Assembly: GCA_021202395.1 (NCBI GenBank)
Contig: JAJQDC010000044.1
Coordinates: 137 to 64,136, forward strand
DNA length: 64,000 nt
Direction of reading: 5' to 3'
Origin: Clostridia bacterium
GTDB taxonomy: Bacteria; Bacillota; Clostridia; Christensenellales; Borkfalkiaceae
Below are positions 8,336 through 26,683 of this stretch, one piece after another. Made by a program: the position numbers and the translations under genes. The notes below the pieces were generated by a model. The model did no database searches and was not told the origin of the DNA. It worked only from the letters and a program-made list of their open reading frames with translations. The stretch's first letter is position 1. Every line of letters starts with the position of its first letter.

Positions 8336-8401
8336 ATATTTCACCTTGTATAAATTATACTATACAGTTAGCAATCTGTCAATCTTTAATTACAATATTA
8401 T

Positions 8402-8433
8402 AAAGTGCGGGTGCATTGCTGCACCCGCACTTT
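8402..8433 (-). terminator. Hairpin downstream of the GH105 gene (candidate terminator)
   Basis: 13-bp stem aaagtgcgggtgc pairs with gcacccgcacttt, loop attgct. The U-tract on the minus strand is weak. Confidence 0.4.
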
Positions 8434-8464
8434 ACAATGAAAAGAAAAATTTAGAATGGTCTTA

Positions 8465-9595
8465 TTAAAGCTGTTTGATTTCGGTATATGCCATAACGAA
8501 CGGACCGGTGCCCTTTGCATCGTTTTCTACCACGGGTTCAGAAATGTAGTATTCAAACGTGCCGTTGCGGCGGCGGTTGTTTTCGGGGCCGAGCCCTGCA
8601 ACAAGGCAGATACCGCCAAGGTTGAGCTTGCCGTCAGTTTCGGTTAAATACTCCATGCAGATGCCGTTGAACACACTTTCGCCAACGGCGGCGAAGTGCT
8701 TATCTACAAACCCCAGCCTTGCGCCCTTCATCATAGCGTAAGCTATCATCGCGCTGCCCGAAGTTTCTACATAGTTGCCTTCCCTTCCGCCCTGGTCTAC
8801 CACCTGGTAGAACATGTGCTTGTCTTTATCTATGTACTGTTCCAGCCCCTCTATCGTATCCTTAAAAATAGCGATAAGCTGAGCTTTAAGCCCGTCGGCG
8901 CCTTCAAAGTAAGATATAGCGTCTACCAAGCCGACGGTGTACCAGCCCACAGAGCGCAGCCAGAAGCTCTTAGAAAGGCCTGTCTCTTTATCTGCCCAGA
9001 AGGCAGTTTTGGAATAGTCCCAGCCGTGGTAGTAAAGCTTTTTCTCTTTGTCGTACATATGGTCGTAAACGCTCTTAAACTGCGCTACTATATCGGCGTA
9101 GTTCTTGCCGCCGTTAACTTCCGTTTCGTAGCGGGTGTAGAACACCTGTGCCATATAAAGCCCGTCAAGCCACACCTGGTTGGGGTAAATAAGTTTATGC
9201 CAGAAGTTACCCGTTCCCGTGCGGGGCTGCCCTTCTACCTGCTTATGAAGAAGCTCTATCGCCTTTTTATACTTTTCCTTGCCCGTCTCTTTGTAAAGGT
9301 CAAACAGCACCCTGCCTTCGTTAAGGTTATCAAGGTTGTAAGTTTCAAGGTCGTACCCGCGGATAGAACCGTCTTCAAACACGTAGTAGTCCACAAACTT
9401 GTCTATAAAGTCAAGATACTTTTTGTTGCCCGTCTGCTTGTAAATGGTATAAAGCGACGTCATCATGCAGCCGTCTATATAGTTCCAGCCGGGCTTCTTG
9501 CCCTGGCGGATATTCTCTATATTCCAGATAGGTGCTTCGGGCACGGTATCTTCTATTAGCCTGTCGATATATTTATCTATAATGCTGTAATCCAT
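8465..9595 (-). CDS. Unsaturated rhamnogalacturonyl/galacturonyl hydrolase (GH105, YteR/YesR-like)
   Basis: 376 aa with no signal peptide. GH105/GH88-type blocks are present, e.g. QVWLDGLYMAQVFY and FWLRSVGWY. It lies 21 nt downstream of GH28 in the pectin operon. RBS aaagggggga. Confidence 0.75.
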   Translation of the reverse strand: MDYSIIDKYIDRLIEDTVPEAPIWNIENIRQGKKPGWNYIDGCMMTSLYTIYKQTGNKKYLDFIDKFVDYYVFEDGSIRGYDLETYNLDNLNEGRVLFDLYKETGKEKYKKAIELLHKQVEGQPRTGTGNFWHKLIYPNQVWLDGLYMAQVFYTRYETEVNGGKNYADIVAQFKSVYDHMYDKEKKLYYHGWDYSKTAFWADKETGLSKSFWLRSVGWYTVGLVDAISYFEGADGLKAQLIAIFKDTIEGLEQYIDKDKHMFYQVVDQGGREGNYVETSGSAMIAYAMMKGARLGFVDKHFAAVGESVFNGICMEYLTETDGKLNLGGICLVAGLGPENNRRRNGTFEYYISEPVVENDAKGTGPFVMAYTEIKQL

Positions 9596-9616: not shown

Positions 9617-11155
9617 TTACCCGATTGAAATATTGCCGCAGTTCTTTTTAATTATTGTATCGCCTTCTACGCCTTCAAACGTAACGTTTTTAAGCGTAAC
9701 CGACTTTACGTTGTCTATATAAATGCCTTCTTTGCAGTAGTCGCGTACAAATTCAAGCATAGCGGGCTTTGCGGGCTTAGCGTCTGCCTTAAAGCCGAAA
9801 TGCACGTTTTCTAACGTAATGCTGCCTATGGGCTGTTCTACAAGCCCGTCAAAGTAAGCGCACATACACTCGCAGTCTTCGCAGTCTATATCCTTAAACA
9901 GGAACTCGCCTATGTAGGGCGTGGTGTCGTCTACAGGTTTGGCTTCACGCGACCATACCGCTTCGGTATGCCCGTCGGGGTCGCAGAAGTAGTACATGTT
10001 TACCACAAGGGGCGTTATTACGTTTTCCATCTTGATATTTTCAAACTTAACGCCGTCTATTATAGCTTCCTTGCCCCTGCCGCGGCGCGTTTTGATACGC
10101 AGCCCCCTGTCGGTATGGCGGAAAAGGCACTGGCTTACGGTAAGGTTTTTTATACCGCCGCTCATCTCGCTGCCCAATACTATCGCACCGTGCCCGTCCT
10201 GGAACAGGTTGTTGCGCAGCGTATGGTGGTTAGCCGGCGTGTGGTATGTCTTAGCCATATAAATTTTACCCGCTTTAATTGCAACGCAGTCGTCGCCCAC
10301 GCTGAACACGCAGCCGACTATATCTACCTTGTCGCAGCTTTCGGGGTCAAGCCCGTCGGTATTGGGGCCTGTATAAGGGTTCTGTACTTTTACGTCGTAG
10401 AACCCAAGGTTATCAGAAAAGAAGGGATGCAGGTTCCACGCACCTGAATTTTTGCAGGTTACGCCGTGGAATACTACGTTGTTGCACTGGTTTAAAAATA
10501 CCAGGCGGGGGCGGGCAACCTTCCTGCCCTTGGGCGTAGCCCACCACGTAGAGTTATCTGCATTGCCGTTTATCGTGCCTTCGCCGACAATTTTTATATT
10601 TTTCTGGCGGAAGGCAGAAACAAAAGACTGGTGGCAATCCCAGGGATCCCCCTCCCACGAAGCCATTACAACTTCTTTGCCGCCTTCGTATATACGTGCG
10701 GGGATGTAGGGGTAATCTTCTTCTTTAACGCTGCCAAGAAGGGTTGCACCCTTGGCAAGTTCAAGCGTTATATCGCTCTTTAAAACAATGGGGCGGGTAT
10801 AGTATGTACCTGCGGGGACATACACCCTGCCGCCTGCGGGGCAGCTGTCTATAGCCATCTGGATGTAGTAAGTATCGTCCGTTACGCCGTCTCCCTTTGC
10901 GCCCAATGCTTTTAAATCTACTACTGCAGATTCCTTTTCCGTATGGAAATAAAGCGAGCTGTCTTCGCAGGATACGGTAACTACATATTCCGTATCAGGC
11001 GTAAGGTTGAATAAAGAGAATACGTTTGCATCCGATTCAGCGGCTTTTTCGCCGTTTAAAAACACGGTGTATTTGCCGCAGGGGTTGTAATAGGGGTTGG
11101 TATTGTCAAATTCAAAGCACGCCGACGTGCCTGAAGCAAAAAGTTTTTTAAGCAT
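9617..11155 (-). CDS. Polygalacturonase (GH28), intact copy
   Basis: 512 aa. All four GH28 signature blocks are present: GPNTDGLDPE, GDDCVAIKAG, GHGAIVLGSE and RGLRIKTRRGRG. No signal peptide was seen. The ATG overlaps the stop of the upstream gene by 8 nt. Confidence 0.85.
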   Translation of the reverse strand: MLKKLFASGTSACFEFDNTNPYYNPCGKYTVFLNGEKAAESDANVFSLFNLTPDTEYVVTVSCEDSSLYFHTEKESAVVDLKALGAKGDGVTDDTYYIQMAIDSCPAGGRVYVPAGTYYTRPIVLKSDITLELAKGATLLGSVKEEDYPYIPARIYEGGKEVVMASWEGDPWDCHQSFVSAFRQKNIKIVGEGTINGNADNSTWWATPKGRKVARPRLVFLNQCNNVVFHGVTCKNSGAWNLHPFFSDNLGFYDVKVQNPYTGPNTDGLDPESCDKVDIVGCVFSVGDDCVAIKAGKIYMAKTYHTPANHHTLRNNLFQDGHGAIVLGSEMSGGIKNLTVSQCLFRHTDRGLRIKTRRGRGKEAIIDGVKFENIKMENVITPLVVNMYYFCDPDGHTEAVWSREAKPVDDTTPYIGEFLFKDIDCEDCECMCAYFDGLVEQPIGSITLENVHFGFKADAKPAKPAMLEFVRDYCKEGIYIDNVKSVTLKNVTFEGVEGDTIIKKNCGNISIG

Positions 11156-11909
11156 TTTCCACCTCGCTCACTTTCTTTTCCTTCACTTTTTTTATTAATT
11201 TTTTTATTAAAAAGACTATCAGGTCTTTTATGCCGATAAAAATCATATCTACTATCAGGCAGAACACGCCGAACAAAAGCGGCTCTACGCCTGCGTAAAT
11301 TCCGATTATGTCGAGCAAATAATACATTGCCCCGACAAAGAAAACAACTACCAGATAGTAAATTATATTGGTAAGGATAGTCCAGAACTGCTTGAACGGG
11401 AAGGGAAACATCATATAATTGTTAAATTCCTTCTTGTCCGATTCCATCATTCTGAAAATGGGGTTGACCATGCAGTCTACTATAATACCCATAACCACGC
11501 CGCAGATGAAGTACAAATCTAACGTAGCGGCATCAGACAGATCTCCGCTGTCGTCTACAAACAATGCACCGATTGCCATAAATACAAAGTAGCACACAAC
11601 GCCAAAGAACCAGAATTTTATAAATGAAGCGCTCAGCCACTTAGGTATGCGTGAAAGTTTATCGCGCTTGTACGGGTCAAATTCCTTCTTCTTTTTAGAT
11701 CTTTTTTTGTGTTTGCCGTCTTCGTCTACATCGTCTTCTTCGCCCGTTATTTCGGCGATGTTCATTGTAGGCACGGGTGTGGTTTCGTCTGCCTCCCCTT
11801 TTAAGGCGGCAACGAGCTCATCCATCTCTTTGGTTTTTAAGTCGTAAAAGTCTTCTATATTAGTTTCTTTGGGTTTGGGTTTGTAGTTACTCTTATTCTT
11901 TTTAGCCAT
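11148..11909 (-). CDS. Small 4-TM membrane protein (253 aa), uncharacterised
   Basis: Long charged N-terminus (K/E/D-rich), then four hydrophobic helices and the acidic C-terminal tail KKVSEVENA. Translationally coupled to GH28. Confidence 0.6.
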   Translation of the reverse strand: MAKKNKSNYKPKPKETNIEDFYDLKTKEMDELVAALKGEADETTPVPTMNIAEITGEEDDVDEDGKHKKRSKKKKEFDPYKRDKLSRIPKWLSASFIKFWFFGVVCYFVFMAIGALFVDDSGDLSDAATLDLYFICGVVMGIIVDCMVNPIFRMMESDKKEFNNYMMFPFPFKQFWTILTNIIYYLVVVFFVGAMYYLLDIIGIYAGVEPLLFGVFCLIVDMIFIGIKDLIVFLIKKLIKKVKEKKVSEVENA

Positions 11910-11927
11910 TTTGTTCCTTTTTTAAAA

Positions 11928-11957
11928 ATAACCGACAAAAATTAATTTGCCGGTTAT
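11928..11957 (-). terminator. Intra-operon hairpin (possible attenuator or partial terminator)
   Basis: On the minus strand: ataaccg-N16-cggttat followed by ttttaaaaaa. It lies in the 89-nt gap between the 209-aa and 253-aa genes. An identical copy is at 32110..32139. Confidence 0.35.
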
Positions 11958-11998
11958 TATCAAATGTAATTTACTATCGGCATTGAAAAACAATGCTA

Positions 11999-12628
11999 TT
12001 AATCTGCATCCTGCAAGTCGATTTCGCCAACGTTGCCGGCAGCAGATTCTACTTCTTTCCTTGTGTTGATCTTCATAAGAAGTTTTCTCCACAAAGGTAA
12101 TGTTGCAAGAAGAACTGCGCCAATAGCAAGCAATACTATATGTACTATAGCGATTGCAAGCGAAGCGGTATCTGCACTGGCATAAGGCAATTTAGAAACA
12201 TCGTTTATCGCTCTTAATCCTGTGATTTCGTTATAGAAAACTATATCAAAGAATATAAGCATTGCGGTAAATACGTATGTTACTACCATCATGGGTATAC
12301 TTGCTTTTTTGTGCTTGGGGAATATACGCATATAAGCTACTATTGCAAGTAACGAAAACAGCGTGCATCCGAATACGCAAAGAGCAGACCATGTCTGGTC
12401 GTTACCATAGTTCTGTGTAACGCATTTAGAAAAATTGGTAAGCGCTACAAGGTAAACTACGCAGGCAACTAAATAGAAAACAAACGGAATGTTCTGAGGT
12501 TTTCTTTTAAGGTTAACTGTTTGTTTGCGGAGCCACTCCTTAAAACCGCCTTTAGACTTCTTTACCTTTGCGGGCTTTGCTTCGGGCTGTTCAACTTCGG
12601 GCTGCAATACATTTTCATTTTCTGCCAT
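11999..12628 (-). CDS. Small 4-TM membrane protein (209 aa), uncharacterised
   Basis: Basic N-terminus, four hydrophobic helices and the acidic tail GEIDLQDAD. RBS ggtgaggtg. Starts 8 nt after the ATPase stop. Confidence 0.6.
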   Translation of the reverse strand: MAENENVLQPEVEQPEAKPAKVKKSKGGFKEWLRKQTVNLKRKPQNIPFVFYLVACVVYLVALTNFSKCVTQNYGNDQTWSALCVFGCTLFSLLAIVAYMRIFPKHKKASIPMMVVTYVFTAMLIFFDIVFYNEITGLRAINDVSKLPYASADTASLAIAIVHIVLLAIGAVLLATLPLWRKLLMKINTRKEVESAAGNVGEIDLQDAD

Positions 12629-12636
12629 AATTCACC

Positions 12637-13701
12637 TCACCTTATCGCCTGTGTAGTTTCTTTATCAAAGAAGTGCATTCTGTCAGATTCGAAACCGATT
12701 GTGATTTCGTCGCCGTACTTGTAATGGCACCACTCAGGGAACTTGCAGACAACTATTTTTCCGTTGATTTTGCCGTGAACCAGGGTATTCATACCAAGGT
12801 TTTCGTTGTTGTCAACTTTAAGGGGAACGTTACCTTCGCGCGTGATATTTTCGGGGCGGACGCCAAGAATTACTTCTTTGCCTTCGTATTCCTGTAAAAG
12901 GGTTTGCTGCTCTTCGGTTAAAGGATATTCAAACCATTCAGATACGAATTTGTCGCCTTCTACCTTGCCTTCTATCATGTTCATGGGGGGTAAGCCTATG
13001 AATGTAGCAACAAAGGTATTTGCGGGGTAATCGTACAGCTCTATGGGTTTACCAATCTGCTGAACATGCCCCATACTCATGCACACAATCCTGTCGGCAA
13101 GCGTTAAAGCTTCCGTCTGGTCGTGGGTAACGTACATTATCGTTGCGTTAAGCTTTTTGTGTAAAAGCATTATCTCCCTTCTCATAGAGCCGCGCAGCTG
13201 TGCGTCAAGGTTAGAAAGCGGTTCGTCAAACAGGAATACTTTGGGGTTACGTACTATTGCACGGCCCATAGCAACACGCTGGCGCTGGCCGCCTGAAAGC
13301 TGGCGGGGCTTTTTGTTGAGCTGGGGTTTAAGATCAAGGATTTCTGCAGCCGCCATAACTTTGCGGTGGATAACCTCTTTCTTTTCTTTACGAAGGGTAA
13401 GCGAAAATGCCATGTTTTCGTAAATGGTCATATGGCCGTACAGAGCGTAGTTCTGGAAAACCATGGCTATGTCTCTGTCTTTGGGGGGCAGACGGGTGCA
13501 ATCTTTGCCGTCTATTATAAGATTACCGTTAGATATATCTTCAAGCCCCGCTACCATACGGAGTGTAGTAGACTTGCCGCAGCCGGAAGGGCCTACAAGT
13601 ACTATAAGTTCACCGTCGTGAATGTCAAGGTTGAAATCGAATACAGCCTGGACATTGCCGTCGTAAATTTTATCTACGTGCTGGATATTAACTTCAGGCA
13701 T
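12637..13701 (-). CDS. ABC sugar-importer ATP-binding protein (MsmX/MalK-like), copy 1 of paralog A
   Basis: Walker A GPSGCGKST, signature LSGGQRQRVAMGRA, Walker B VFLFDEPLSNLD, H-loop YVTHD, and a C-terminal MalK-type regulatory domain. I moved the start to ATG 13701 (MPEVNIQ, AGGAGGTG RBS) instead of 13731. Confidence 0.85.
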   Translation of the reverse strand: MPEVNIQHVDKIYDGNVQAVFDFNLDIHDGELIVLVGPSGCGKSTTLRMVAGLEDISNGNLIIDGKDCTRLPPKDRDIAMVFQNYALYGHMTIYENMAFSLTLRKEKKEVIHRKVMAAAEILDLKPQLNKKPRQLSGGQRQRVAMGRAIVRNPKVFLFDEPLSNLDAQLRGSMRREIMLLHKKLNATIMYVTHDQTEALTLADRIVCMSMGHVQQIGKPIELYDYPANTFVATFIGLPPMNMIEGKVEGDKFVSEWFEYPLTEEQQTLLQEYEGKEVILGVRPENITREGNVPLKVDNNENLGMNTLVHGKINGKIVVCKFPEWCHYKYGDEITIGFESDRMHFFDKETTQAIR

Positions 13702-14290
13702 TTGCCACCTCCTGTGCGTCCTTTTCGTCAAGGTCCTTTAATGCAGCCTCTACCGAAACGGAACCTTCATCAATGGCTTTGTTGAATTTTTCAAGCTTTC
13801 TTGCGCGGGTGTAACCGAATATAGCAGAAGCTACAAGGCATGCAGCGCTGAGCACAAGGAATATAATCATCACAGCTGAAAATTCACCTTTCTGCATTGT
13901 GTGCCAGAAGAAATATGTATAAATATCGCCGTCTGTTGTTGTTGTGTTTAAAACTTTGATAGGATAATAGAATATCCTTATAATCTGAACTACTGCAAGA
14001 GCCAAAAGCGTAATGCTGTACTTCCAGTTATAAGCTCTAATTCCTTCTTCTGCAAGCATTGTAACAAGTAAGAAGCAAAGGTTTACCACAACGGATATAC
14101 CTATTGTAATTGTATTGAATGCCGTAACGTTTACGCTATAGAATACCATAAAGTATAAACATTCAAACACAAGGCTTAAAAGAGCAAAGTTTGCAGCAGT
14201 TTTGTTGCGCTTATAGCGCATAACGTCTGTCTGAATTATCTGCTCGCTTGTTTCGGGCATAGCAGACATCTGGGAGAGTTTATTTTCCAT
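13694..14290 (-). CDS. Small 4-TM membrane protein (198 aa), uncharacterised
   Basis: Four hydrophobic helices and the acidic tail DEKDAQEVANA. Its stop overlaps the ATPase start (ATGCCTGA). The AGGAGG RBS lies inside the end of the preceding gene. Confidence 0.6.
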   Translation of the reverse strand: MENKLSQMSAMPETSEQIIQTDVMRYKRNKTAANFALLSLVFECLYFMVFYSVNVTAFNTITIGISVVVNLCFLLVTMLAEEGIRAYNWKYSITLLALAVVQIIRIFYYPIKVLNTTTTDGDIYTYFFWHTMQKGEFSAVMIIFLVLSAACLVASAIFGYTRARKLEKFNKAIDEGSVSVEAALKDLDEKDAQEVANA

Positions 14291-14293
14291 AGT

Positions 14294-14893
14294 TTACGCT
14301 ACCTCCTGAACTTCGGATACGTTCTGTCCGTTAGCAAGAAGTTCTTTTTCGCCCTTCATAAGCTTAATTTTCCAGACAAGGTTGTAAGCAAGCGCAGCTG
14401 CGTCTAAAAGCACTATTACCGCAAGCACATAACCAAGATAATAAATTGTCTGGTTGTCGCCGTAAAGCCTTGCAGAACCGTCTGCCCAGTTTGCAAGCCC
14501 ATCCCAGTCAACTTCGGAAAGACCTACCTGAACAGAAGCGGTAAGCGCTATGCAAACAATAGCCCATACTACGCAGTAACCGATTGCTATACCTACCGTA
14601 ATGTAGTTGGATATGTAATAATTGCGCCTTTTGTTACTTGCAAATATGTAACATGCAACTATTACAAGTACAAATATTATTCCCAGCCATAAAAGTATGT
14701 CGTTATAATCTTGTGCCAGCCAATAAACATTTTCTGCACCGTAAGGGTCTTTCTTATTTGAATAAGCAGACGTTACGCGCGCAAGATATGTTATCGCACC
14801 CGTGCAAAAGCCGAAGGCGTATACAATGGTAAGCGCAGCTATAACAAGCGAAACCGTGAATAATATTTTTTGAAACCGCATTTGAGTTTTCAT
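14294..14893 (-). CDS. Small 4-TM membrane protein (199 aa), uncharacterised
   Basis: Four hydrophobic helices and the acidic tail QNVSEVQEVA. There is a 3-nt gap to the next gene. Confidence 0.6.
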   Translation of the reverse strand: MKTQMRFQKILFTVSLVIAALTIVYAFGFCTGAITYLARVTSAYSNKKDPYGAENVYWLAQDYNDILLWLGIIFVLVIVACYIFASNKRRNYYISNYITVGIAIGYCVVWAIVCIALTASVQVGLSEVDWDGLANWADGSARLYGDNQTIYYLGYVLAVIVLLDAAALAYNLVWKIKLMKGEKELLANGQNVSEVQEVA

Positions 14894-14924
14894 ATCATTT
14901 CCCCAAATCGTAATGTTTTACCGT

Positions 14925-14948
14925 GGCGCCCGCCCGCAAGCGGGCGCC
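14925..14948 (-). promoter_or_regulatory. GC-rich hairpin just downstream of the binding-protein gene
   Basis: Perfect 9-bp stem ggcgcccgc pairs with gcgggcgcc, with a 6-nt loop and no adjacent U-tract. Its position matches the mRNA-stabilising or partial-terminator hairpins often found after SBP genes. An identical copy is at 35107..35130. Confidence 0.4.
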
Positions 14949-14993
14949 GCGTAAACATATTTAATTTTTATTATTTTTTTGTAGTTTTAACGA

Positions 14994-17690
14994 TTAGAGC
15001 AAGAAGCTGATATAATCGTCATAGTATCCGCTGATGTCAGCCCATGCTTCCTGCATGTATGCTACATATGTGCTGAGATTGTAAGAGTTATTAAGAAGGT
15101 CTATACAAGCCTGAGCCGTTGCAGGGAGTGTAACTGATTCAAAGTACGTAGGCTGGTAACCATGACCAGATGTAAGGCCGTAGTATGTGATATCAATGTA
15201 GAAGTTGGTTGAGTTGCTTGAGCTTGATGCAAATACGGTGTTATCAAGGTCGTCTGCATTGTTGCTTATCCAGTTTGCAACGTCGTTTGCATAAGGAAGG
15301 GTTGAAGTAACTTCGGTGTACCAGTAGCCCTTGCCGTTATCGGAACCTACCTGCTGATATACGTGAGCGATAGTGCCGTTGGTAAGGCCTGCTGCTACGA
15401 TGCTTGCACCGTTGATACCCTGCTGTGATGTGCACTGATATTCAAATGCCTGCAGTTTGTTACCTATAGGAAGGCAAGCGCCTATCATGTAACGTGCATA
15501 GTTGGTGTAGCTTCTTACGGCTGATTTTGCAAGCTGGCTCTGAGCTGTGCCGTTTACGCTCTTGCCGTAGTAGAATGCAAGGTTAGAATTTGTAACGGTA
15601 GGATACTGTTTGCCCTTGTAGTATGTACCTGTGTAAAGCTTGTTGTTGTAGCAGAAGTACTGAGAAGCATAGTCGCTGTTGATATAGTACTGGCCGCCGA
15701 CCATTGTTGCAACGCTGCTGATGCTTACGTTTGTAACTTCGGTTGCGTACCACCAGCCGTCGTCAGACGTACCTGTGTAATCGGATGTAGCGTCTGTGCA
15801 GTTGTTGGTAGAAGACTGTGTACCAAAGCTCATAAGTATCTGGCCGTCGTTAGAATAGAAGTAATCTACAAATGCAAGAACTGCTGCAAGTTTTTCGGGA
15901 TCGTTTTCTACAGATGCTCTGGGAATAGCTGCTGCAGAAGACTTAACTGAACGCCAGCTTTCGGTGAAGCGCATGTACTTGTAGTCGCCGTCGTAGTCGT
16001 AAGATATACCGTCTACGTTAGCCTTTGTAGATGTGCTGCCGTCATCCCACTTAGAAACGGGTGTAACTATAGGTGCATAGTTGTAACCGTCTTCTATCTG
16101 GCCGGAAGCAAGACCCATATCGGTGAAGCCGCCGGTTGCGGTCTGTGTCTGAACATAGTCATACTGCATTAAAGCTTCGCATGTGCCGGATTTATAGTAA
16201 CTGTTACTATCAGATGCTTTTACGCCTGATGTATCATCTGCGTTGTATAAACCTTCCTGAGTCATCTTGTGCATCTTATCAAGAGCTTCGTAGCTGTCTA
16301 AGTCTGCACGTGCGTTCTGAAGGTCGCCGTTTTCATCTACATAAGTATATGTGTAACGTGATTCAAGGCCGCGCACGCCGTAAAGTTCGCCTGCAAGGTT
16401 GAACATGTTGTTCATACGCTGAGCTGTTGACTGCCTGCCGGTAAGGCCGTATACAAGGGTATTATCGGTATATGTGCCGCCGTTTGAATATGTGTTAAGG
16501 TTGGTTATGTTGTAGCAGCATACGCAGCGCATCATAGCAACCAACAGGTCTACGTCCCATGCAGCGTCATAGCCGTTGAATACGTCTGAACGTGTGCTGT
16601 AGTATGTATTGCCGTTAGAATCAAGATATGCAACGTCTACATAAGCCTGAAGTATGCTGGTGAGCTGTGCGCCCGTAGCTTCGCCGCTTGTAGCGTTGAT
16701 AGCTGCGTTCTGAAGGTCTACGATGTTGCCGCTTGTAAGGTTGCCAACAGTAACGCCTGCAGCGGTAAGGGCTTTGCCGAGTGCAGTTGTGCTGTCATTT
16801 GCAGCTTCAAGAGCTTTGTCGTAGCTAACAGTAATGGTAACTGTTTCGTCTTCATCATCGGGGTCGGTGCTTTCTATCCACCAGCTGCCCGTTGTACCCA
16901 TAAATGATTCGCAGGAAGCTTCGGTAGATGTATAACCGTAACCTGAGTTGTTAACTTTAGCAGCTTTAGCTTCTACCTGGTCTTTGAATGTAAGCGTGTC
17001 AGAAGGCTGTGTGGTGCTGTCAAGTATAACTGACATCCAGTTCTTTTTAGCAAGAACGTAGTCTTCTATATCGTCGTTACCATCAAAGTAAGGCATGTAG
17101 TAGATAGCACCTGTATCAGTATCTGATGTCAGGGACATGTATACGATGGGGTTATCTGTAAGGAACTTTTTAAAGTTGGGCATATAGTCAAGATAGAGCG
17201 AAAGGTCAAGGAACTGATCGCTGCTTGCCGATGCCTGTGTTGTAATGGTGCTTGTGCCGCCGGTTACAACATTGTAGTTGTTCAGCACGCCTGTAGATAA
17301 GTTGGTTGTTATCTGTTCTGTATCAGACATGTTGGTGTAGCTGTCGGTAAGCGTTACGTCAAGCACTTCCTGAAGACCCTGCCATGCGGGTTTGAGTGAG
17401 CCGTTGGAATATTCAACGCCGTCGGGCATTGCTACGGTACCTGTAAAGTTACCTGATGTATAGGCTATGTTTGCAGGCATATCCGTTGCTTTGTAACCTA
17501 CGTTCATGTTAAGTTCTATACCGGAAGTATAGGAAAGGTTGCCGTCATCATCAGTGCTGACTTCAAGTACTTCCTGGCTGGCGGAAAGCACCTTCAGCGT
17601 CCTGGTGTTACATGCTGTAACGCTAAGGCACATAGAGCTTGCCAGCACAAGACTTACTACGGCAATCGCAACTTTTTTTGTCTTGTTCAT
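14994..17690 (-). CDS. Very large extracellular solute-binding lipoprotein of the ABC importer
   Basis: 898 aa. Signal peptide plus lipobox (MCLSVTAC). It directly follows the two permease genes and contains an SBP-like segment, GAIYYMPYFDGNDD. It is far longer than the usual ~450-550-aa LplA-type binding proteins. RBS aaggag. Confidence 0.6.
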   Translation of the reverse strand: MNKTKKVAIAVVSLVLASSMCLSVTACNTRTLKVLSASQEVLEVSTDDDGNLSYTSGIELNMNVGYKATDMPANIAYTSGNFTGTVAMPDGVEYSNGSLKPAWQGLQEVLDVTLTDSYTNMSDTEQITTNLSTGVLNNYNVVTGGTSTITTQASASSDQFLDLSLYLDYMPNFKKFLTDNPIVYMSLTSDTDTGAIYYMPYFDGNDDIEDYVLAKKNWMSVILDSTTQPSDTLTFKDQVEAKAAKVNNSGYGYTSTEASCESFMGTTGSWWIESTDPDDEDETVTITVSYDKALEAANDSTTALGKALTAAGVTVGNLTSGNIVDLQNAAINATSGEATGAQLTSILQAYVDVAYLDSNGNTYYSTRSDVFNGYDAAWDVDLLVAMMRCVCCYNITNLNTYSNGGTYTDNTLVYGLTGRQSTAQRMNNMFNLAGELYGVRGLESRYTYTYVDENGDLQNARADLDSYEALDKMHKMTQEGLYNADDTSGVKASDSNSYYKSGTCEALMQYDYVQTQTATGGFTDMGLASGQIEDGYNYAPIVTPVSKWDDGSTSTKANVDGISYDYDGDYKYMRFTESWRSVKSSAAAIPRASVENDPEKLAAVLAFVDYFYSNDGQILMSFGTQSSTNNCTDATSDYTGTSDDGWWYATEVTNVSISSVATMVGGQYYINSDYASQYFCYNNKLYTGTYYKGKQYPTVTNSNLAFYYGKSVNGTAQSQLAKSAVRSYTNYARYMIGACLPIGNKLQAFEYQCTSQQGINGASIVAAGLTNGTIAHVYQQVGSDNGKGYWYTEVTSTLPYANDVANWISNNADDLDNTVFASSSSNSTNFYIDITYYGLTSGHGYQPTYFESVTLPATAQACIDLLNNSYNLSTYVAYMQEAWADISGYYDDYISFLL

Positions 17691-17774
17691 TTTATTCTCC
17701 TTATTTTTATAAAAATCTTTTTATAATATAAACCCCGAACTTAAGGCTTATATACTGATTGGGTTTTTGGGTGG

Positions 17775-17945
17775 ATAAGGGTTTGCCTTACCCTGTTTGG
17801 CTTCCCCTTGAGGGGAAAGCAAGATTTACTTTTTCGGGTTGGAGATCTCTCCGCTACGGTCGAGATGACAGGCGGGCGTTGCCGCCTGTACAGCCCCGCA
17901 GGGCTGTCATTTCGAGTGGAGCGTAGCGCAATCGAGAAATCTATT
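17775..17945. repeat. Hairpin repeat modules inserted between the permease and binding-protein genes
   Basis: Contains ttggcttccccttgaggggaaagcaag and ggtcgagatgacaggcgggcgttgccgcctgtacagccccgcagggctgtcatttcgag...gagaaatct. These are the same families as at 1765 and 6600. An identical copy is at 37957..38127. Confidence 0.6.
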
Positions 17946-17950
17946 CCTTA

Positions 17951-18958
17951 TTATTCTTTTACACCGCCCATATTTACGCCTTTGGCGAAATACTTCTGGA
18001 TGAAAGGATATACTATAAGTATAGGTACAACCGAGCAAACAACCATCGCATATACAACGCCGTAGGTAGATATTGTTACACCGCCGGCACCGTCGTCGTA
18101 CAGGTTGTTCCAGGATATCATAGCGTCTTCGTTAGCTTCGCCAACAAGGCTGGTATATGTGCTGATGAAGTCGCGGACGAATACCTGAACGGGCCATGAA
18201 TAGCTTTGGTTGTATGCGCCGGACATGATCTTCATCGCCCAGAAGTAGCCGTTCCAACGGGATATTGCAAAGAACAACGTTACGGTTGCTATTGTAGCTC
18301 TACTCATAGGAAGGTAAACTCTTGTAAGAACCTGCATTTCGGTAGCGCCGTCTATACGGGCTGCTTCTTCTATTTCAGAGGGAACTCCTTCAAATGCGTT
18401 TCTTAAAAGAATTATGTTGGTAGCGTTCATACCCATGGCAAGAACTACAACCCATTTAAGGTCTATGCTGTTGGGGTTGCCGCCCTGGCCTGCTATGGTA
18501 GCAAAAATTTCAGCTGTGTCTATATAGTTGTTATATGTAGCAACAACGCCTGCGCCGAACCACATGGTGAACACAAGGAAGAAGTTCCAGCCGTGCCTGC
18601 CAAGCAAGCGCTTTTTGCTGAGTGCATATGCGCCGAGCACCGAATATATAAGGCACCAAACGGTACCTATTACCGTCATGAATATGGTGTTGGAATAGCT
18701 TATCCAGAACTGTGCGCTGCCCCTGCCTGTAAACAGGTACTGGTATGCGGTTATCGTTCCGCCGATAGATAAACTGTTTTTATCCGAACCGATCATGGGT
18801 AAAAGTATTACCGAACCGGTGGTATTCGCTTCGTTAGAGCTGAAGGATGCACCTAATGCGTAAAGGAAGGGATATACGCAAATTACCGCAAATATTATAA
18901 GGAATACGTATGCAATAATTTTGAATATCAGTTCCGATGTCTCCATTTTACGTTTCAT
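17951..18958 (-). CDS. ABC sugar-importer permease (MalG/LplC-type)
   Basis: 335 aa, multi-TM. EAA loop EAARIDGATEMQVLTRVYLPMSRATI. Confidence 0.8.
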   Translation of the reverse strand: MKRKMETSELIFKIIAYVFLIIFAVICVYPFLYALGASFSSNEANTTGSVILLPMIGSDKNSLSIGGTITAYQYLFTGRGSAQFWISYSNTIFMTVIGTVWCLIYSVLGAYALSKKRLLGRHGWNFFLVFTMWFGAGVVATYNNYIDTAEIFATIAGQGGNPNSIDLKWVVVLAMGMNATNIILLRNAFEGVPSEIEEAARIDGATEMQVLTRVYLPMSRATIATVTLFFAISRWNGYFWAMKIMSGAYNQSYSWPVQVFVRDFISTYTSLVGEANEDAMISWNNLYDDGAGGVTISTYGVVYAMVVCSVVPILIVYPFIQKYFAKGVNMGGVKE

Positions 18959-18973
18959 ACATCAAATTCCCCC

Positions 18974-20053
18974 TTAATACAGCGATACATCGGTAGCCTT
19001 GCGGCTTACGGCATTTGAGCCTATAACCAGAATCATGCCGAGCAGGTTGGTAATCATTTCGCCCGCCATACCTATAGGCTGGTTGGTAGTCATGCCGTTT
19101 GCCCATACCGAAACGGTTGCGCCAATGTAGTAGTTGCCGTTCCTGTTGGTAACACCGGAACCCTGAACATACAGGTAAACCTTTTCGTAGCTAACAGAAA
19201 GCAGCGAGCCTATCTTCATTATAAGCATAATAACTACGGTAGACAATATGCTGGGTATAACAACATAGCGCATCTGCGCCATCTTGCCTGCGCCGTCTAT
19301 CTGCGCTGCTTCGTAAGAAGTAGGAGATACGGCAATTACCGCAGCAAAGAATACTATACTGTCGTAGCCTGCGTGCTCCCATAATTCAGAGATTATGAAT
19401 ATACCCCTGAAGTACCTGGTGCTGTAAACTATACCTGTCTGAGTTGCCTGCCCTATTACAGAGTCTGAACCGAAGATACCTACTATAGCTTTTGCAAGGA
19501 TACCGTTTGAGCCGGTGCCGCCGAAAAGCGATATAATAAGTGTGGTGATAACTACGACAGACATGAACTTAGGCAGATATACGCAAACCTGCATAATGCT
19601 GCGCGCGATGTTAGAGCGGACTTCGTTAAAGAACAACGCGAGAATAATGGGGAACGGGAAACCGAACAGTAAACCATAGAAGGCTATGATGAACGTGTTG
19701 CGGAAAGTACTCCAGAACGTGTTGTAGTATGTACCGTAGTAACCGCTGCCCGCTATAAGCGCGCCAAAGTTGTCGAAACCGGACCAGCTAAGGTCTTCAA
19801 GCATACCGCCGTTGGTTCCTACGTCTTTGAACACCGCAAGAAGCTCGGTTATGGGCAGGTATTTCCATAGGATGTATACCAGCAACATAGGTACGAGCAT
19901 CAGGTACAGGCGCCAGTCCTTAAGTACAGTCAAGCCGATGTCCTTCCACCGCTTTTTTTCGACTTCGTCCCTTACCTGCTGATCGGGTGCGATGGAATAT
20001 GTTCCAGTCGCCTCGTCATAAGTAAGGAAATCGTCGCACTTAAGTTTGAACAT
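18974..20053 (-). CDS. ABC sugar-importer permease (MalF/LplB-type)
   Basis: Multi-TM with EAA loop EAAQIDGAGKMAQMRYVVIPSI. I moved the start to ATG 20053 (MFKLK, GGAGGG RBS 5 nt upstream) instead of the GTG at 20071. Confidence 0.8.
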   Translation of the reverse strand: MFKLKCDDFLTYDEATGTYSIAPDQQVRDEVEKKRWKDIGLTVLKDWRLYLMLVPMLLVYILWKYLPITELLAVFKDVGTNGGMLEDLSWSGFDNFGALIAGSGYYGTYYNTFWSTFRNTFIIAFYGLLFGFPFPIILALFFNEVRSNIARSIMQVCVYLPKFMSVVVITTLIISLFGGTGSNGILAKAIVGIFGSDSVIGQATQTGIVYSTRYFRGIFIISELWEHAGYDSIVFFAAVIAVSPTSYEAAQIDGAGKMAQMRYVVIPSILSTVVIMLIMKIGSLLSVSYEKVYLYVQGSGVTNRNGNYYIGATVSVWANGMTTNQPIGMAGEMITNLLGMILVIGSNAVSRKATDVSLY

Positions 20054-20183
20054 AAGTTCCCTCCATATCACTTAAAAATATAAGTAATTATTTGTAAGAG
20101 CGGCTGTTCGGGCTTTCCTGCCCGCGTTACCGCGTTTTACCATAGTAAAAAATTTAATAAAAGCATAATGCGGGCAAACGAGC

Positions 20184-20882
20184 CTATTCAAACAGATCGT
20201 TACCCTTTTTATTTAAAGCTTCTATATCTTCAGGCGAAATTTCTATGGGGTCGTCCCCGTAGGTATCTATCCGCCATCTTTCTTCTTTTTCTTTCTGAAG
20301 GCGCAGAAGGTAATCTTTCTGCCGCTCCATCATACCGTCAGACCGCCGCATAATGAACATTATCACCAGAGCCATAGCCAGCGACAACAGATCCCAGATA
20401 AGAAATTCTGTTGTAAAGCCGAACCCTACGCAGGCGGCTACTGCCGTTCTGCCAAGGGCTACGCACAGCCAGCCTGCCAACGTAAATAAAAGCGTAAGCC
20501 ACCATCTTTTCTGGATGCGCTTGTAGCCGACAAAATGAACCATAAGGTAATCAAGCCCGATAAACGCATTGCCTATACCGTATATTAAAAGGTTATGCCA
20601 CACGTCTGTGCCCGTTACCCCGTCCATGTTCAGCAGGTAGAGCATGCAGTAGAACAGCCCGTCGAACACGGCATAAAACATACCGTACCAGCCCCACCTT
20701 AACATCATAAGCAGCGTTACAGGCACCACTATAGAAAATATAAAGTCGGCATAATCTGTGAACCAGGAAGCAAAGGCATAATAGCTGATAAGTTCAAATG
20801 CTACAAGAATTACTGCAAACAGAAACATATCTGTAAAACGGTATCTGCCGAAAGAAATAACTCTTGCGTTTAATTTACCCAT
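20184..20882 (-). CDS. Polytopic membrane protein (232 aa) with a charged cytoplasmic tail, uncharacterised
   Basis: About 5-6 hydrophobic helices, then ERQKDYLLRLQKEKEERWRIDTYGDDPIEISPEDIEALNKKGNDLFE. Transcribed divergently from the pectinesterase gene. Confidence 0.55.
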   Translation of the reverse strand: MGKLNARVISFGRYRFTDMFLFAVILVAFELISYYAFASWFTDYADFIFSIVVPVTLLMMLRWGWYGMFYAVFDGLFYCMLYLLNMDGVTGTDVWHNLLIYGIGNAFIGLDYLMVHFVGYKRIQKRWWLTLLFTLAGWLCVALGRTAVAACVGFGFTTEFLIWDLLSLAMALVIMFIMRRSDGMMERQKDYLLRLQKEKEERWRIDTYGDDPIEISPEDIEALNKKGNDLFE

Positions 20883-21007
20883 ACTTTATCGTAAGCAACA
20901 AAATAACATTGAAAATTTTGTAATTTACCGATGCCATTGTGTTACATTTTCACATTTAGCTTTCTTATTATAGCATACACTTTTTTAAAAATCAATACCT
21001 TTTTTAA

Positions 21008-21036
21008 TTGTTTCACAAAAAAATTTATGATAAAAT
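21008..21036 (+). promoter_or_regulatory. Candidate sigma-A promoter of the pectinesterase gene
   Basis: TTGTTT (21008-21013), a 17-nt spacer, then TAAAAT (21031-21036), 28 nt upstream of ATG 21065. An identical copy is at 41190..41218. Confidence 0.4.
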
Positions 21037-21064
21037 TAAAATACATTTAAATGAGGTACCCGTT

Positions 21065-22042: not shown

Positions 22043-22091
22043 AAGAGCAATAAATCGGGCATATGTGGGCATCAATCAAATAAAATACGGT

Positions 22092-22122
22092 AAACGGGTA
22101 CGTTATTTCGTGCCCGTTTTTT
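22092..22122 (+). terminator. Terminator of the pectinesterase gene
   Basis: Stem aaacggg pairs with cccgttt, followed by tttttatg. An identical copy is at 42274..42304. Confidence 0.5.
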
Positions 22123-22156
22123 ATGATTGGGCGGCATATATGCCCCGATTAATGCA

Positions 22157-22188
22157 AAAACGCCGCACGGCATGCCGTGCGGCGTTTT
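22157..22188 (-). terminator. Terminator of the uxaBAC unit (palindromic, usable in both directions)
   Basis: Perfect palindrome aaaacgccgcacggcatgccgtgcggcgtttt. On the minus strand it is followed by tttttgc. An identical copy is at 42339..42370. Confidence 0.65.
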
Positions 22189-22201
22189 ACGTTTAATTTA
22201 A

Positions 22202-26527: not shown

Positions 26528-26659
26528 ATATTAAAACTACCTCACGTTTATATTTATTTTGTTAAATTAAAAATTTTGCATAACAAACAGAGCTATGCGT
26601 AGTTACACATACCTTGCCTTATTGCATAAGGCGGTAATTTTTCAGTTTTAAGCAATGCG

Positions 26660-26683
26660 GGCGCAGCGCAACCGCGCTGCGCC
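26660..26683 (-). terminator. Hairpin after ATPase paralog B (candidate terminator upstream of uxaB)
   Basis: 10-bp GC stem ggcgcagcgc pairs with gcgctgcgcc, loop aacc. The U-tract is weak. An identical copy is at 46842..46865. Confidence 0.45.

What the first reader, a model, noticed from the sequence alone, without database searches (positions are those of the whole stretch)
11148..14893. Four uncharacterised small 4-TM proteins with similar acidic C-terminal tails, translationally interleaved with the ABC ATPase
**Gene arrangement.** Downstream of permease-permease-SBP, the operon continues with five tightly packed genes: a 199-aa gene, a 198-aa gene, the MsmX-like ATPase, a 209-aa gene and a 253-aa gene. 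GH28 and GH105 follow. The gaps are 3 nt, an 8-nt overlap, 8 nt, 89 nt and an 8-nt overlap.

**Shared architecture.** By eye, all four small proteins have a cytoplasmic basic N-terminus, four hydrophobic helices and a short acidic C-terminal tail. The tails look similar: ...SEVQEVA, ...AQEVANA, ...SEVENA and ...IDLQDAD.

**Why it is unusual.** A CUT1-type sugar importer normally needs only two permeases, an SBP and an ATPase. Having the ATPase gene sandwiched between, and translationally coupled to, extra small membrane proteins is not the standard layout. B. subtilis rhamnogalacturonan loci carry small DUF624 membrane proteins (YesL/YesV) of unknown role, which may be an analogy. I cannot establish homology by eye.

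**Possible roles.** They could be accessory or regulatory subunits of the importer, a second unrecognised transport or sensing module, or membrane anchors for the cytoplasmic GH28/GH105. The whole set is duplicated at 31330..35075.
Basis: partly seen in the sequence, partly recalled or inferred. Interest (0 to 1): 0.65.

Follow-up and report, generated by a model that had tools for sequence, protein, structure and literature searches.

The report
Four extra membrane proteins in pectin importer
Four small, unnamed membrane proteins are always encoded around the ATPase gene of a pectin-fragment ABC importer in many uncultured gut Clostridia, so they are probably unrecognised extra subunits of it, while their look-alike tails are only the next gene's ribosome-binding site read as protein.

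Summary
Gene order, spacing (3, -8, 8, 89, -8 nt), four-helix topology and the second copy are all as described.

The four proteins (A 199, B 198, C 209, D 253 aa) are real genes under purifying selection. In all 64 complete loci found, the order is E-permease-permease-binding protein-A-B-ATPase-C-D-GH28-GH105. More distant low-GC metagenome contigs keep the ATPase-C-D-GH28 core, and the longer ones the full A-B-ATPase-C-D block.

They are four separate families, not detectable paralogues. None matches Pfam (including DUF624), NCBIfam or any solved structure.

Conservation sits on the cytoplasmic loops. The outer loops vary freely.

The similar tails (..EVA, ..EVxNA) are the Shine-Dalgarno site and overlapping ATG of the downstream gene read in frame. 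They are not a shared protein motif.

A-B-ATPase-C is a translationally coupled cassette flanked by conserved hairpins. D is coupled to GH28.

My best reading, inferred rather than shown, is that A-D are auxiliary membrane subunits of an AlgQ/Tog-like oligogalacturonide importer. They would dock on the ATPase and permeases from the cytoplasmic side.

The "duplicate set" belongs to a perfect 20,182-bp tandem duplication that may be an assembly artefact.

The parts
20967..20995 (-). Promoter-like site upstream of gene E; candidate operon promoter
   Evidence: TTGATT-17-TATAAT with a TG extension. This is a consensus match only.
20184..20882 (-). E: a fifth unannotated membrane protein (232 aa, 6 predicted TM, charged C-terminal tail) at the head of the operon
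   Evidence: ORF. No Pfam or NCBIfam hit. Present at this position in every locus long enough. Topology.
18974..20071 (-). Permease 1 (365 aa), MalF/UgpA-like, with a canonical EAA loop (EAAQIDGAGKMAQMRYVVIP)
   Evidence: PF00528. UgpA-like by NCBIfam. The EAA motif was read from the translation.
17951..18958 (-). Permease 2 (335 aa), MalG/UgpE-like, with a canonical EAA loop (EAARIDGATEMQVLTRVYLP)
   Evidence: PF00528. MalG/UgpE-like. The motif was read.
14994..17690 (-). Solute-binding lipoprotein (898 aa, lipobox ..LSVTAC), a distant relative of the uronate-oligosaccharide binders AlgQ1/AlgQ2
   Evidence: No Pfam or NCBIfam hit as a single sequence. A profile of 34 orthologues hits AlgQ1/AlgQ2 at E 2e-9 and family-1 binding proteins at 1e-5.
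14913..14958 (-). GC-rich RNA hairpin between the binding-protein gene and A
   Evidence: -29.9 kcal/mol, z -3.0. A hairpin of <= -12 kcal/mol sits in this spacer in 64/64 loci.
14294..14893 (-). A (199 aa): tetraspan, N-in/C-in. Conserved cytoplasmic motifs are MKTQMRFQK, NKRRNYYxTNY and NLVWKIKLMKGEK. The tail codons CAGGAGGTAGCG carry the SD of gene B.
13694..14290 (-). B (198 aa): tetraspan. Conserved cytoplasmic motifs are DxxRYKxNK and SEGxKGYNKK. The tail carries the ATPase SD and overlaps its ATG by 8 nt.
12637..13701 (-). Dedicated MalK/UgpC/MsmX-type ATPase (354 aa) with OB/TOBE regulatory domain
   Evidence: PF00005, PF17912, PF08402. NCBIfam UgpC subfamily, 472 bits against a cutoff of 432. 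77-87% identical across loci.
11999..12628 (-). C (209 aa): tetraspan. Conserved N-terminal KEWxRKxxVxLKR and loop FPKxKK. Its acidic tail is not explained by an SD.
11921..11964 (-). RNA hairpin (13-bp stem followed by UUUUU) between C and D; a possible attenuator or processing site
   Evidence: -25.2 kcal/mol for the whole 89-nt C|D spacer (which also holds a second, smaller hairpin), z -5.0. A hairpin of <= -12 kcal/mol sits in this spacer in 64/64 loci.
11148..11909 (-). D (253 aa): cytoplasmic N-terminal extension plus tetraspan core. It is the most conserved of the four. Its stop overlaps the GH28 start by 8 nt.
9617..11155 (-). GH28 polygalacturonase-type enzyme (512 aa). It has no N-terminal hydrophobic signal by reading, so it is presumably cytoplasmic.
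   Evidence: PF00295. Sequence.
8465..9595 (-). GH105-type unsaturated uronyl hydrolase (376 aa; Pfam Glyco_hydro_88 model)
   Evidence: PF07470, E 1.5e-90.
8397..8438 (-). Terminator-like hairpin (19-bp stem) closing the operon
31330..35075 (-). Identical second copy of D, C, ATPase, B and A (first-copy coordinates + 20182)
10066..50438 (.). Perfect tandem duplication of a 20,182-bp unit. The junction at 30248-30256 has a 9-nt overlap. It truncates the second GH28 copy (30201-31337) and extends the N-terminus of the AP_endonuc_2 ORF (29356-30312).
   Evidence: Contigs of a related strain show the unduplicated arrangement.

Best explanation
A, B, C and D are four distinct, previously unnamed families of tetraspan inner-membrane proteins (N-in, four helices, C-in). 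They are fixed parts of an 11-gene operon for uptake and intracellular breakdown of pectin oligosaccharides in uncultured gut Clostridia (Candidatus Coproplasma and Christensenella-like MAGs, and further low-GC lineages).

The most likely mechanism is that they are auxiliary membrane subunits of the CUT1-type ABC importer. That importer consists of two EAA-loop permeases, an AlgQ-like binding lipoprotein and a dedicated MalK/UgpC-type ATPase.

A, B and C are made from one translationally coupled cassette together with the ATPase. D is made from the next cassette together with GH28. All four present conserved basic juxtamembrane motifs to the cytoplasm. There they would contact the ATPase dimer and the cytoplasmic face of the permeases, for example to hold the dedicated ATPase on this transporter or to stabilise or enlarge the complex.

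Shown: the genes are real, selected, of conserved order and spacing, with cytoplasm-side conservation and no known family.

Inferred: physical association with the transporter, and its purpose.

The look-alike C-terminal tails are not a protein motif. They are the next gene's Shine-Dalgarno site and start codon read in frame.
For: 1. Conserved linkage. The A family occurs in 147 species-level genomes. All 64 loci that carry all 11 genes have E-P1-P2-SBP-A-B-ATPase-C-D-GH28-GH105 in that order, and no other locus fetched except L045 breaks the order (also 11-13).

2. Deep conservation. The D profile finds 340 clusters at 50% identity. Every distant contig that reaches both flanks of D has D between an ATPase and GH28 (L097 is the exception, see below). 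L087 and L090 have orthologues of A, B, C and D in the same order. The GC content of these loci ranges from 26 to 52%.

3. Purifying selection. dN/dS is 0.17 (A), 0.18 (B), 0.31 (C) and 0.18 (D), against 0.17-0.18 for the permeases.

4. Coupled expression. A|B is <= 3 nt in 64/64 loci. B|ATPase is -8 to +2 in 64/64. ATPase|C is <= 16 nt in 98%. D|GH28 is -8 in 51/64. The Shine-Dalgarno site lies inside the upstream coding sequence. Hairpins bracket the A-B-ATPase-C cassette in 64/64 loci.

5. Cytoplasm-side conservation. Mean column conservation is 0.78-0.92 in the TM2-TM3 loops and 0.47-0.88 in the N-terminal segments. It is 0.11-0.38 in the outer loops. The A-loop motif KR(R/K)xYYxxN is kept even at 20-26% identity.

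6. The importer itself is otherwise canonical. It has EAA loops, a UgpC/MalK-type ATPase and an AlgQ-like binding protein. So A-D are additions, not replacements.

7. Exploratory distance-matrix correlation places A-D with transporter parts. Partial correlations are P1-D 0.41, SBP-A 0.40, SBP-B 0.33 and ATPase-D 0.26. Values against GH28 and GH105 run from -0.11 to 0.18, all below those four (highest A-GH105 0.18, then D-GH28 0.13). The known partners P1-P2 give 0.44.
Against: - There is no direct evidence of physical association. No multimer prediction could be run and no experiment exists.
- Canonical CUT1 importers (MalFGK2, TogMNAB, AlgM1M2SS) work without such subunits.
- The correlation analysis is confounded by shared phylogeny and by rate class.
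- L087 carries A-B-ATPase-C-D-GH28-GH105 with no permease or binding-protein gene in the 3.4 kb upstream. The small proteins may therefore track the ATPase and enzymes rather than the permeases.
- D is coupled to GH28, not to the ATPase cassette.
- Foldseek finds only generic four-helix bundles, so the fold gives no functional clue.
Confidence: 0.5

Rival explanations
1. Enzyme tether or metabolon. D (and perhaps the others) anchors the cytoplasmic GH28 and GH105 at the inner face of the importer, so that imported oligogalacturonides are cleaved as they emerge.
For: The D stop overlaps the GH28 start by 8 nt in 51/64 loci. In every distant contig that extends past D, except L097, D is immediately followed by GH28. 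D has a conserved cytoplasmic N-terminal helix motif, YYDLKxDxVDxLVxA, that could bind a soluble partner. GH28 and GH105 have no signal peptide by reading.
Against: The partial distance correlation D-GH28 is only 0.13, against 0.41 for D-P1 and 0.26 for D-ATPase (weak evidence). A, B and C are coupled to the ATPase, not to the enzymes. In L097, D sits directly before the ATPase. The shortest D homologues lack the N-terminal extension.
Confidence: 0.15
2. Separate translocator. The four tetraspans (16 helices) together with the ATPase form a second, novel membrane unit that does not use P1 and P2. It could, for example, move another pectin product or act as an exporter.
For: The ATPase gene is sandwiched between them and translationally coupled to them. 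L087 has the A-B-ATPase-C-D block without adjacent permease or binding-protein genes.
Against: P1 and P2 carry canonical EAA coupling loops and need an ATPase, and the operon has only this one. None of A-D has an EAA-like loop. Profile searches of solved structures find no ABC membrane-domain relative. Weak FecCD hits are below threshold and inconsistent. Apart from L087, every locus that reaches far enough upstream of A has P1, P2 and the binding protein, or at least the binding protein on shorter contigs.
Confidence: 0.12
3. Regulatory module. The tetraspans gate or sense, for example by modulating ATPase activity through its C-terminal OB/TOBE regulatory domain, or by reporting transport status to the neighbouring AraC-type regulator.
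For: MalK-type regulatory domains are known docking sites for regulators (established for MalK with MalT and EIIAGlc; my own knowledge). The conserved motifs of A-D all face the cytoplasm. An AraC-family gene flanks the operon in the window (6790-7515) and in relatives.
Against: Four separate, constantly co-inherited membrane proteins are more than a simple regulator needs. The outer loops are poorly conserved, which argues against ligand sensing outside the cell. No sensor or signalling domain was detected.
Confidence: 0.1
4. Hitch-hiking function. These are membrane proteins with a role unrelated to the transporter complex, such as coping with uronic-acid load or envelope maintenance, and they merely share the operon.
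For: No family or fold assignment constrains their function.
Against: The position-by-position interleaving with the ATPase is maintained across lineages of 26-52% GC. That is hard to explain without a shared assembly or stoichiometry requirement.
Confidence: 0.08

Closest known systems
TogMNAB oligogalacturonide ABC importer of Dickeya dadantii (CUT1 family; my own knowledge)
   Same: Same substrate class is inferred. The core is the same: two MalF/MalG-type permeases, a binding protein and a MalK-type ATPase. It is linked to pectin catabolism genes.
   Different: Tog has only the four canonical parts. Here four or five extra conserved membrane proteins are interleaved. The binding protein is 700-900 aa and invisible to Pfam. 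The ATPase gene sits inside the tetraspan cassette.
AlgM1M2SS-AlgQ1/AlgQ2 alginate importer of Sphingomonas sp. A1 (PDB 4tqu, 1y3n, 1j1n)
   Same: The binding-protein profile matches AlgQ1/AlgQ2 at E about 2e-9. Both are type I importers for acidic uronate oligosaccharides.
   Different: The solved AlgM1M2SS complex has no additional membrane subunits. Similarity covers only parts of the 898-aa protein (profile positions 108-233 and 415-614).
Bacillus subtilis pectin/rhamnogalacturonan loci with shared MsmX ATPase and DUF624 proteins YesL/YesV (my own knowledge)
   Same: These are Firmicute CUT1 importers for pectin fragments, accompanied by small membrane proteins of unknown role, with cytoplasmic GH28/GH105-type enzymes nearby.
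   Different: None of A-E gives any DUF624 hit at the thresholds used. The ATPase here is dedicated and in-operon rather than shared and unlinked. There are four separate families, not one.
Small or tetraspan auxiliary subunits of membrane machines (KdpF of KdpFABC, AcrZ of AcrAB-TolC; eukaryotic TARP, claudin-like, MS4A and MARVEL tetraspans)
   Same: This is a functional analogy. Small membrane proteins are encoded or assembled with a transporter or channel and modulate or stabilise it. The A model's nearest folds include synaptogyrin, claudin-3, TARP gamma-2 and the Fc-epsilon-RI receptor (entries 8yvu, 8y81; I take the matched chain to be the MS4A-type beta subunit, my own knowledge).
   Different: Foldseek E is 0.05-1 and TM-score is below 0.5, so there is no homology. 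Those are single subunits. Here four different tetraspans of about 200 aa occur per system.

Membership tests
DUF624 (PF04854; YesL/YesV-type membrane proteins) | Significant match to the Pfam DUF624 model | tested here: not met
   hmmscan of A-D at E <= 1 and of E at E <= 0.1 lists no DUF624. None of the 72 D-family members hits it.
CUT1-type ABC importer (the system as a whole) | Two BPD_transp_1 permeases, each with an EAA coupling loop | tested here: met
   PF00528 for both. The motifs EAAQIDG..IP and EAARIDG..LP were read.
CUT1-type ABC importer (the system as a whole) | MalK/UgpC/MsmX-type ATPase with a C-terminal regulatory domain | tested here: met
   PF00005 + OB_MalK + TOBE_2. NCBIfam UgpC subfamily above its cutoff.
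CUT1-type ABC importer (the system as a whole) | Extracytoplasmic solute-binding (lipo)protein of cluster family 1 | tested here: met
   An orthologue profile hits AlgQ1/AlgQ2 (E 2e-9) and family-1 binding proteins. The lipobox was read. The single sequence has no Pfam or NCBIfam hit.
CUT1-type ABC importer (the system as a whole) | A-D are recognised components of the family | tested here: not met
   A-D have no match to any ABC permease, ECF S/T component or other transporter model above threshold. No ABC membrane-domain chain appears in PDB profile searches.
Mutual paralogy of A, B, C and D (one family) | Significant sequence or profile-profile similarity | tested here: not met
   BLASTP best E is 0.07. 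hhalign best is B-C, probability 31%, over 49 columns; all others are <= 8%. The same 4-TM topology is shared.
DUF1097 (a name NCBI gave to one D homologue, P0165) | Match to the Pfam DUF1097 model | tested here: not met
   The Pfam scan of P0165 shows only a sub-threshold FecCD hit. No D member hits DUF1097.
Eukaryotic-type tetraspans (claudin/TARP, MARVEL, MS4A) | Significant structural match | tested here: inconclusive
   A model: synaptogyrin E 0.049, TM 0.40; claudin-3 E 0.37, TM 0.45. D model: nothing below E 2.7. This is generic four-helix bundle similarity only.

The most novel reading that the evidence does not exclude
A, B, C and D (and possibly E) are obligate stoichiometric subunits. 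That would make a type I ABC importer of nine or more chains and about 30 or more transmembrane helices. It would be a new architectural class of binding-protein-dependent importer, built for large polyanionic pectin fragments, and it would define four or five new protein families.
Probability: 0.3. Interest if true: 0.8.

Novelty: new variant of a known kind. Interest (0 to 1): 0.6.

Why it matters
Type I ABC importers are textbook four-part machines. A widespread variant with four or five extra conserved membrane subunits would change that picture.

The system sits in abundant but uncultured gut Clostridia that respond to dietary pectin, so it bears on how fibre is captured in the gut.

It also defines several protein families with no Pfam or NCBIfam model. 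These are ready targets for multimer prediction and cryo-EM.

There is a methodological lesson too. Look-alike C-terminal peptides in tightly packed operons can simply be embedded ribosome-binding sites.

Tried and rejected
- **DUF624 (YesL/YesV) homology.** No hit.
- **Paralogy of the four.** BLASTP and hhalign find nothing significant.
- **Shared acidic tail as a docking or degradation motif.** Rejected for A, B and D. The tails are the SD and ATG of the next gene. They are absent in distant orthologues, and so is C's acidic tail.
- **Type II (FecCD/BtuC-like) permease fragments.** Sub-threshold FecCD hits appear for A, for two D members and for P0165. No BtuC-like chain appears in PDB profile searches. 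I treat the hits as hydrophobic bias.
- **DUF4199 for A.** 21.9 bits against a cutoff of 32.3.
- **DUF1097 label on P0165.** Not reproduced.
- **Metagenome scan with the broad D alignment.** It failed for lack of a conserved stretch. The narrower alignment gave only 6 loci.
- **Literature searches.** Nothing on these proteins.
- **Cluster look-up of distant D homologues.** Only unnamed metagenome proteins, no cultured organism.
- **Read support for the duplication junction.** Only a related strain was available, and it shows the unduplicated layout.
- **Third large protein search.** Left unused, because top-120 lists would be filled by the same orthologues.

Full report
**1. What is in the window**

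All genes of the finding lie on the - strand.
- Permease 1: 18974-20071.
- Permease 2: 17951-18958.
- An 898-aa lipoprotein: 14994-17690.
- A: 14294-14893, 199 aa.
- B: 13694-14290, 198 aa.
- A MalK-type ATPase: 12637-13701, counted from the ATG that gives the 8-nt overlap.
- C: 11999-12628, 209 aa.
- D: 11148-11909, 253 aa.
- GH28: 9617-11155.
- GH105: 8465-9595.

Pfam confirms ABC_tran + OB_MalK + TOBE_2 for the ATPase, GH28, and Glyco_hydro_88 for the GH105-type enzyme. It confirms BPD_transp_1 for both permeases. Both permeases carry canonical EAA loops, read.

A fifth unannotated membrane protein, E (20184-20882, six predicted helices), heads the operon.

A promoter-like site lies at 20967-20995, and a strong terminator-like hairpin lies at 8397-8438. 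Together they bracket an 11-gene unit.

A divergent pectinesterase gene sits next to the operon. The hexuronate pathway genes lie beyond it: UxaC, UxaA, a UxaB-like gene, KduI and a second MsmX-like ATPase that is 47% identical to the operon ATPase.

**2. The duplicate**

The second set at 31330-35075 is not an independent copy. The window holds a perfect tandem duplication of 20,182 bp. Positions 10066-30256 equal 30248-50438 with no mismatch, joined through a 9-nt overlap.

The junction cuts the second GH28 copy, leaving a 378-aa ORF with a foreign tail.

Contigs of a related strain (95-99% alike) continue across both sides in the unduplicated arrangement. The duplication is therefore either strain-specific or an assembly artefact. 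I could not decide which.

**3. The four proteins are real, conserved and unnamed**

- Pfam and NCBIfam give nothing above threshold for A-D, and no DUF624 hit at all.
- A has 261 relatives (90%-identity clusters) among 5.8 billion non-redundant sequences. Every listed hit that carries a real description is called hypothetical and comes from Clostridia MAGs; three JGI hits carry unrelated automatic labels.
- A scan of one genome per species found A in 147 genomes. These are Candidatus Coproplasma, "Borkfalkiaceae" and Christensenella-like gut MAGs.
- Every fetched locus shows the same genes in the same order as far as its contig reaches, except L045. The 64 loci with all 11 genes read E-P1-P2-SBP-A-B-ATPase-C-D-GH28-GH105 (gene calls in 11-13).
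- Identity to the window is 31-51% for A, 33-52% for B, 31-46% for C and 44-65% for D. It is 77-87% for the ATPase.
- Rough Nei-Gojobori dN/dS is 0.17, 0.18, 0.31 and 0.18 for A-D. That is the same range as the permeases, at 0.17-0.18.
- An RNA library from a bat gut holds contigs 90-99% alike over the ATPase, the permeases and parts of A and B. This is weak evidence of transcription.

**4. They are four families, not one**

Pairwise BLASTP finds nothing (best E 0.07). Profile-profile comparison of alignments with 70-83 sequences each is also negative. The best pair is B-C at probability 31% over 49 columns, and every other pair is <= 8%.

Profile searches against all PDB sequences find nothing for A-E.

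AlphaFold2 gives a confident four-helix membrane bundle with two short outer helices for A (pLDDT 90.6, pTM 0.86). For D it gives a four-helix core (pLDDT about 90) behind a poorly predicted N-terminal extension.

Foldseek against the PDB returns only generic helical bundles. For A these are de novo maquettes, synaptogyrin, claudin-3, TARP and the Fc-epsilon-RI receptor, with E >= 0.047 and all but one TM-score at or below 0.5. For D nothing falls below E 2.7.

**5. Where the conservation lies**

Averaged hydropathy and the positive-inside rule give N-in, four helices, C-in for all four.

Mean column conservation is 0.78-0.92 in the TM2-TM3 cytoplasmic loops and 0.47-0.88 in the N-terminal cytoplasmic segments. 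It is 0.11-0.38 in the outer loops.

The conserved motifs are:
- A: MKTQMRFQK, NKRRNYYxTNY, NLVWKIKLMKGEK.
- B: DxxRYKxNK, SEGxKGYNKK.
- C: KEWxRKxxVxLKR, FPKxKK.
- D: FDPYK..IPxWxKAxFIKWWFAG, NPxFRYMESDxKEYNxYMMFPFPFK, GVEPLLFG..DMxFIGIKD.

The A loop motif KR(R/K)xYYxxN and the N-terminal QK survive at 20-26% identity. This pattern is what one expects of proteins that dock on a cytoplasmic or juxtamembrane partner. It is not what one expects of outward-facing sensors.

**6. The similar tails explained**

The window's A tail is ..CAG GAG GTA GCG TAA, followed 3 nt later by the ATG of B.

The B tail is ..CAG GAG GTG GCA AAT GCC TGA, with the ATPase ATG inside it.

The D tail is ..AGC GAG GTG GAA AAT GCT TAA, with the GH28 ATG inside it.

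So "EV" is GAGGT(G/A), the Shine-Dalgarno site of the next gene. "NA-stop" is A-ATG-Cxx-TxA, the overlapping start.

Across 64 loci an SD-like site lies inside the upstream coding sequence in 48 (A to B), 56 (B to ATPase) and 41 (D to GH28). It is read as KEV, EEV, GEV or KE.

Distant orthologues with other spacing lack these tails. C's acidic tail has no such cause, because the C-D spacer is 51-373 nt. It too is absent from distant orthologues. The tail resemblance is therefore a nucleic-acid constraint, not a shared protein feature.

**7. Operon micro-architecture**

The spacing is conserved:
- A|B is <= 3 nt in 64/64 loci.
- B|ATPase is -8 to +2 in 64/64.
- ATPase|C is <= 16 nt in 98%.
- C|D has a median of 73 nt and is never tight.
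- D|GH28 is -8 in 51/64.
- SBP|A is about 94 nt.

The SBP|A and C|D spacers each hold a strong hairpin in the window (z -3.0 and -5.0) and in all 64 loci.

The unit thus reads: SBP - hairpin - [A B ATPase C] - hairpin - [D GH28 GH105] - terminator. The middle cassette is built for coupled translation of three tetraspans with the ATPase.

**8. How far the module reaches**

A D-family profile run against 1.84 billion cluster representatives finds 340 clusters at E <= 1e-3 and 216 at E <= 1e-10. Many are 170-220 aa and lack the N-terminal extension.

Every distant context I could fetch that reaches both flanks of D shows ATPase - small protein - D - GH28; L097 is the exception. Their GC content is 26-52%. 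The long contigs show the following:
- L090 and L099 hold E'-P1-P2-SBP(700 aa)-A'-B'-ATPase-C'-D'-GH28.
- L093 and the JGI contig hold the block from the binding-protein gene onwards.

HMMs of A, B and C recognise the corresponding proteins of L087 and L090 in the same order.

There are two variants. L087 has the A-B-ATPase-C-D-GH28-GH105 block without permease or binding-protein genes in the 3.4 kb upstream. In L097, D lies directly before the ATPase.

No member comes from a cultured organism or carries a name. Literature searches found nothing on these proteins.

**9. What the transporter is**

The 898-aa lipoprotein has no Pfam or NCBIfam hit on its own. A profile of 34 orthologues matches the alginate-oligosaccharide binders AlgQ1/AlgQ2 (E about 2e-9) and family-1 binding proteins.

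The operon also encodes GH28, GH105 and a pectinesterase that lack signal peptides by reading, and the uronate pathway lies nearby. So the system is an importer for pectin oligosaccharides that are degraded inside the cell. It is functionally akin to TogMNAB and to the B. subtilis MsmX-dependent systems (my own knowledge).

**10. Mechanism**

The canonical parts are complete, so A-D are additions. Four observations point the same way:
- strict co-inheritance;
- coupled translation with the ATPase;
- conservation on the cytoplasmic side;
- an exploratory distance-matrix analysis.

In that analysis the partial correlations were P1-D 0.41, SBP-A 0.40, SBP-B 0.33 and ATPase-D 0.26. Values against GH28 and GH105 ran from -0.11 to 0.18, below those four. 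The positive control P1-P2 gave 0.44.

From these I judge it most likely (about 0.5) that A-D are auxiliary membrane subunits of the importer complex. The correlation analysis is confounded by phylogeny and rate class, and I count it as weak.

The rivals are:
- D as a tether for GH28/GH105, supported by the conserved D-GH28 overlap;
- a separate translocator made of the tetraspans and the ATPase, supported by L087 but opposed by the EAA loops of P1 and P2;
- a regulatory module acting on the MalK-type regulatory domain;
- an unrelated co-operonic function.

These are not mutually exclusive, and none is excluded.

**11. Novelty**

The kind of system, a CUT1 ABC importer for uronate oligosaccharides, is known. 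The four or five extra families and their fixed interleaving with the ATPase are not described in Pfam, NCBIfam, the PDB or the searched literature. I rate it a new variant of a known kind. Its interest rests on genomic evidence only.

Noticed in passing
window 10066-50438 (junction 30248-30256): A perfect 20,182-bp tandem duplication with a 9-nt overlap at the junction. It truncates the second GH28 copy (30201-31337) and extends the N-terminus of the AP_endonuc_2 ORF at 29356-30312. Contigs of a related strain show the unduplicated layout. It may be an assembly artefact.
   Followed up: partly
window 14994-17690 (-): The binding lipoprotein is 898 aa (700-900 aa in relatives). It is invisible to Pfam and NCBIfam. 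Only an orthologue profile reaches AlgQ1/AlgQ2 and family-1 binding proteins, and only over parts of the protein. It is an unusually large and divergent binding protein.
   Followed up: partly
window 20184-20882 (-): E is a 232-aa, six-helix membrane protein with a long charged C-terminal tail and a conserved RWGW motif. It has no family match. It heads the operon in every complete locus, and L090 and L099 carry it too. Its distance matrix correlates best with B.
   Followed up: partly
window 14913-14958 and 11921-11964 (-): Strong RNA hairpins lie in the SBP|A and C|D spacers, and they are present in all 64 related loci. They probably set different expression levels for the operon segments.
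   Followed up: partly
window 2109-5210 (+): A 1033-aa protein built of four 606-nt (202-aa) repeats about 81% alike, with fibronectin type III hits and an N-terminal hydrophobic segment. It is probably a surface protein.
   Followed up: no
window 56931-58244: Three tandem 507-nt repeats, 95-98% identical. Not examined.
   Followed up: no
window 28780-28986, 48962-49168, 51448-51654: A 207-nt element that is part of the duplicated unit has a third copy, 86% identical, at 51448, outside the duplication.
   Followed up: no
window 26696-27814 (-): A second MalK/MsmX-type ATPase, 47% identical to the operon one, stands alone inside the hexuronate catabolism cluster (UxaC, UxaA, UxaB-like, KduI). 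The genome therefore has both a free ATPase and the dedicated, tetraspan-flanked one.
   Followed up: partly
L045:521-4214: In MAG UBA11940, A and B are followed by an ATPase. Its first 100 or so residues match the operon type, but the rest diverges (54% overall). Unrelated genes follow. The contig has masked stretches. It is either a chimeric assembly or a recombinant.
   Followed up: no
L087:3451-9316 and L097:79-1137: Two variants of the layout. L087 has A-B-ATPase-C-D-GH28-GH105 with no permease or binding-protein genes upstream. In L097 a D homologue lies directly before the ATPase.
   Followed up: partly
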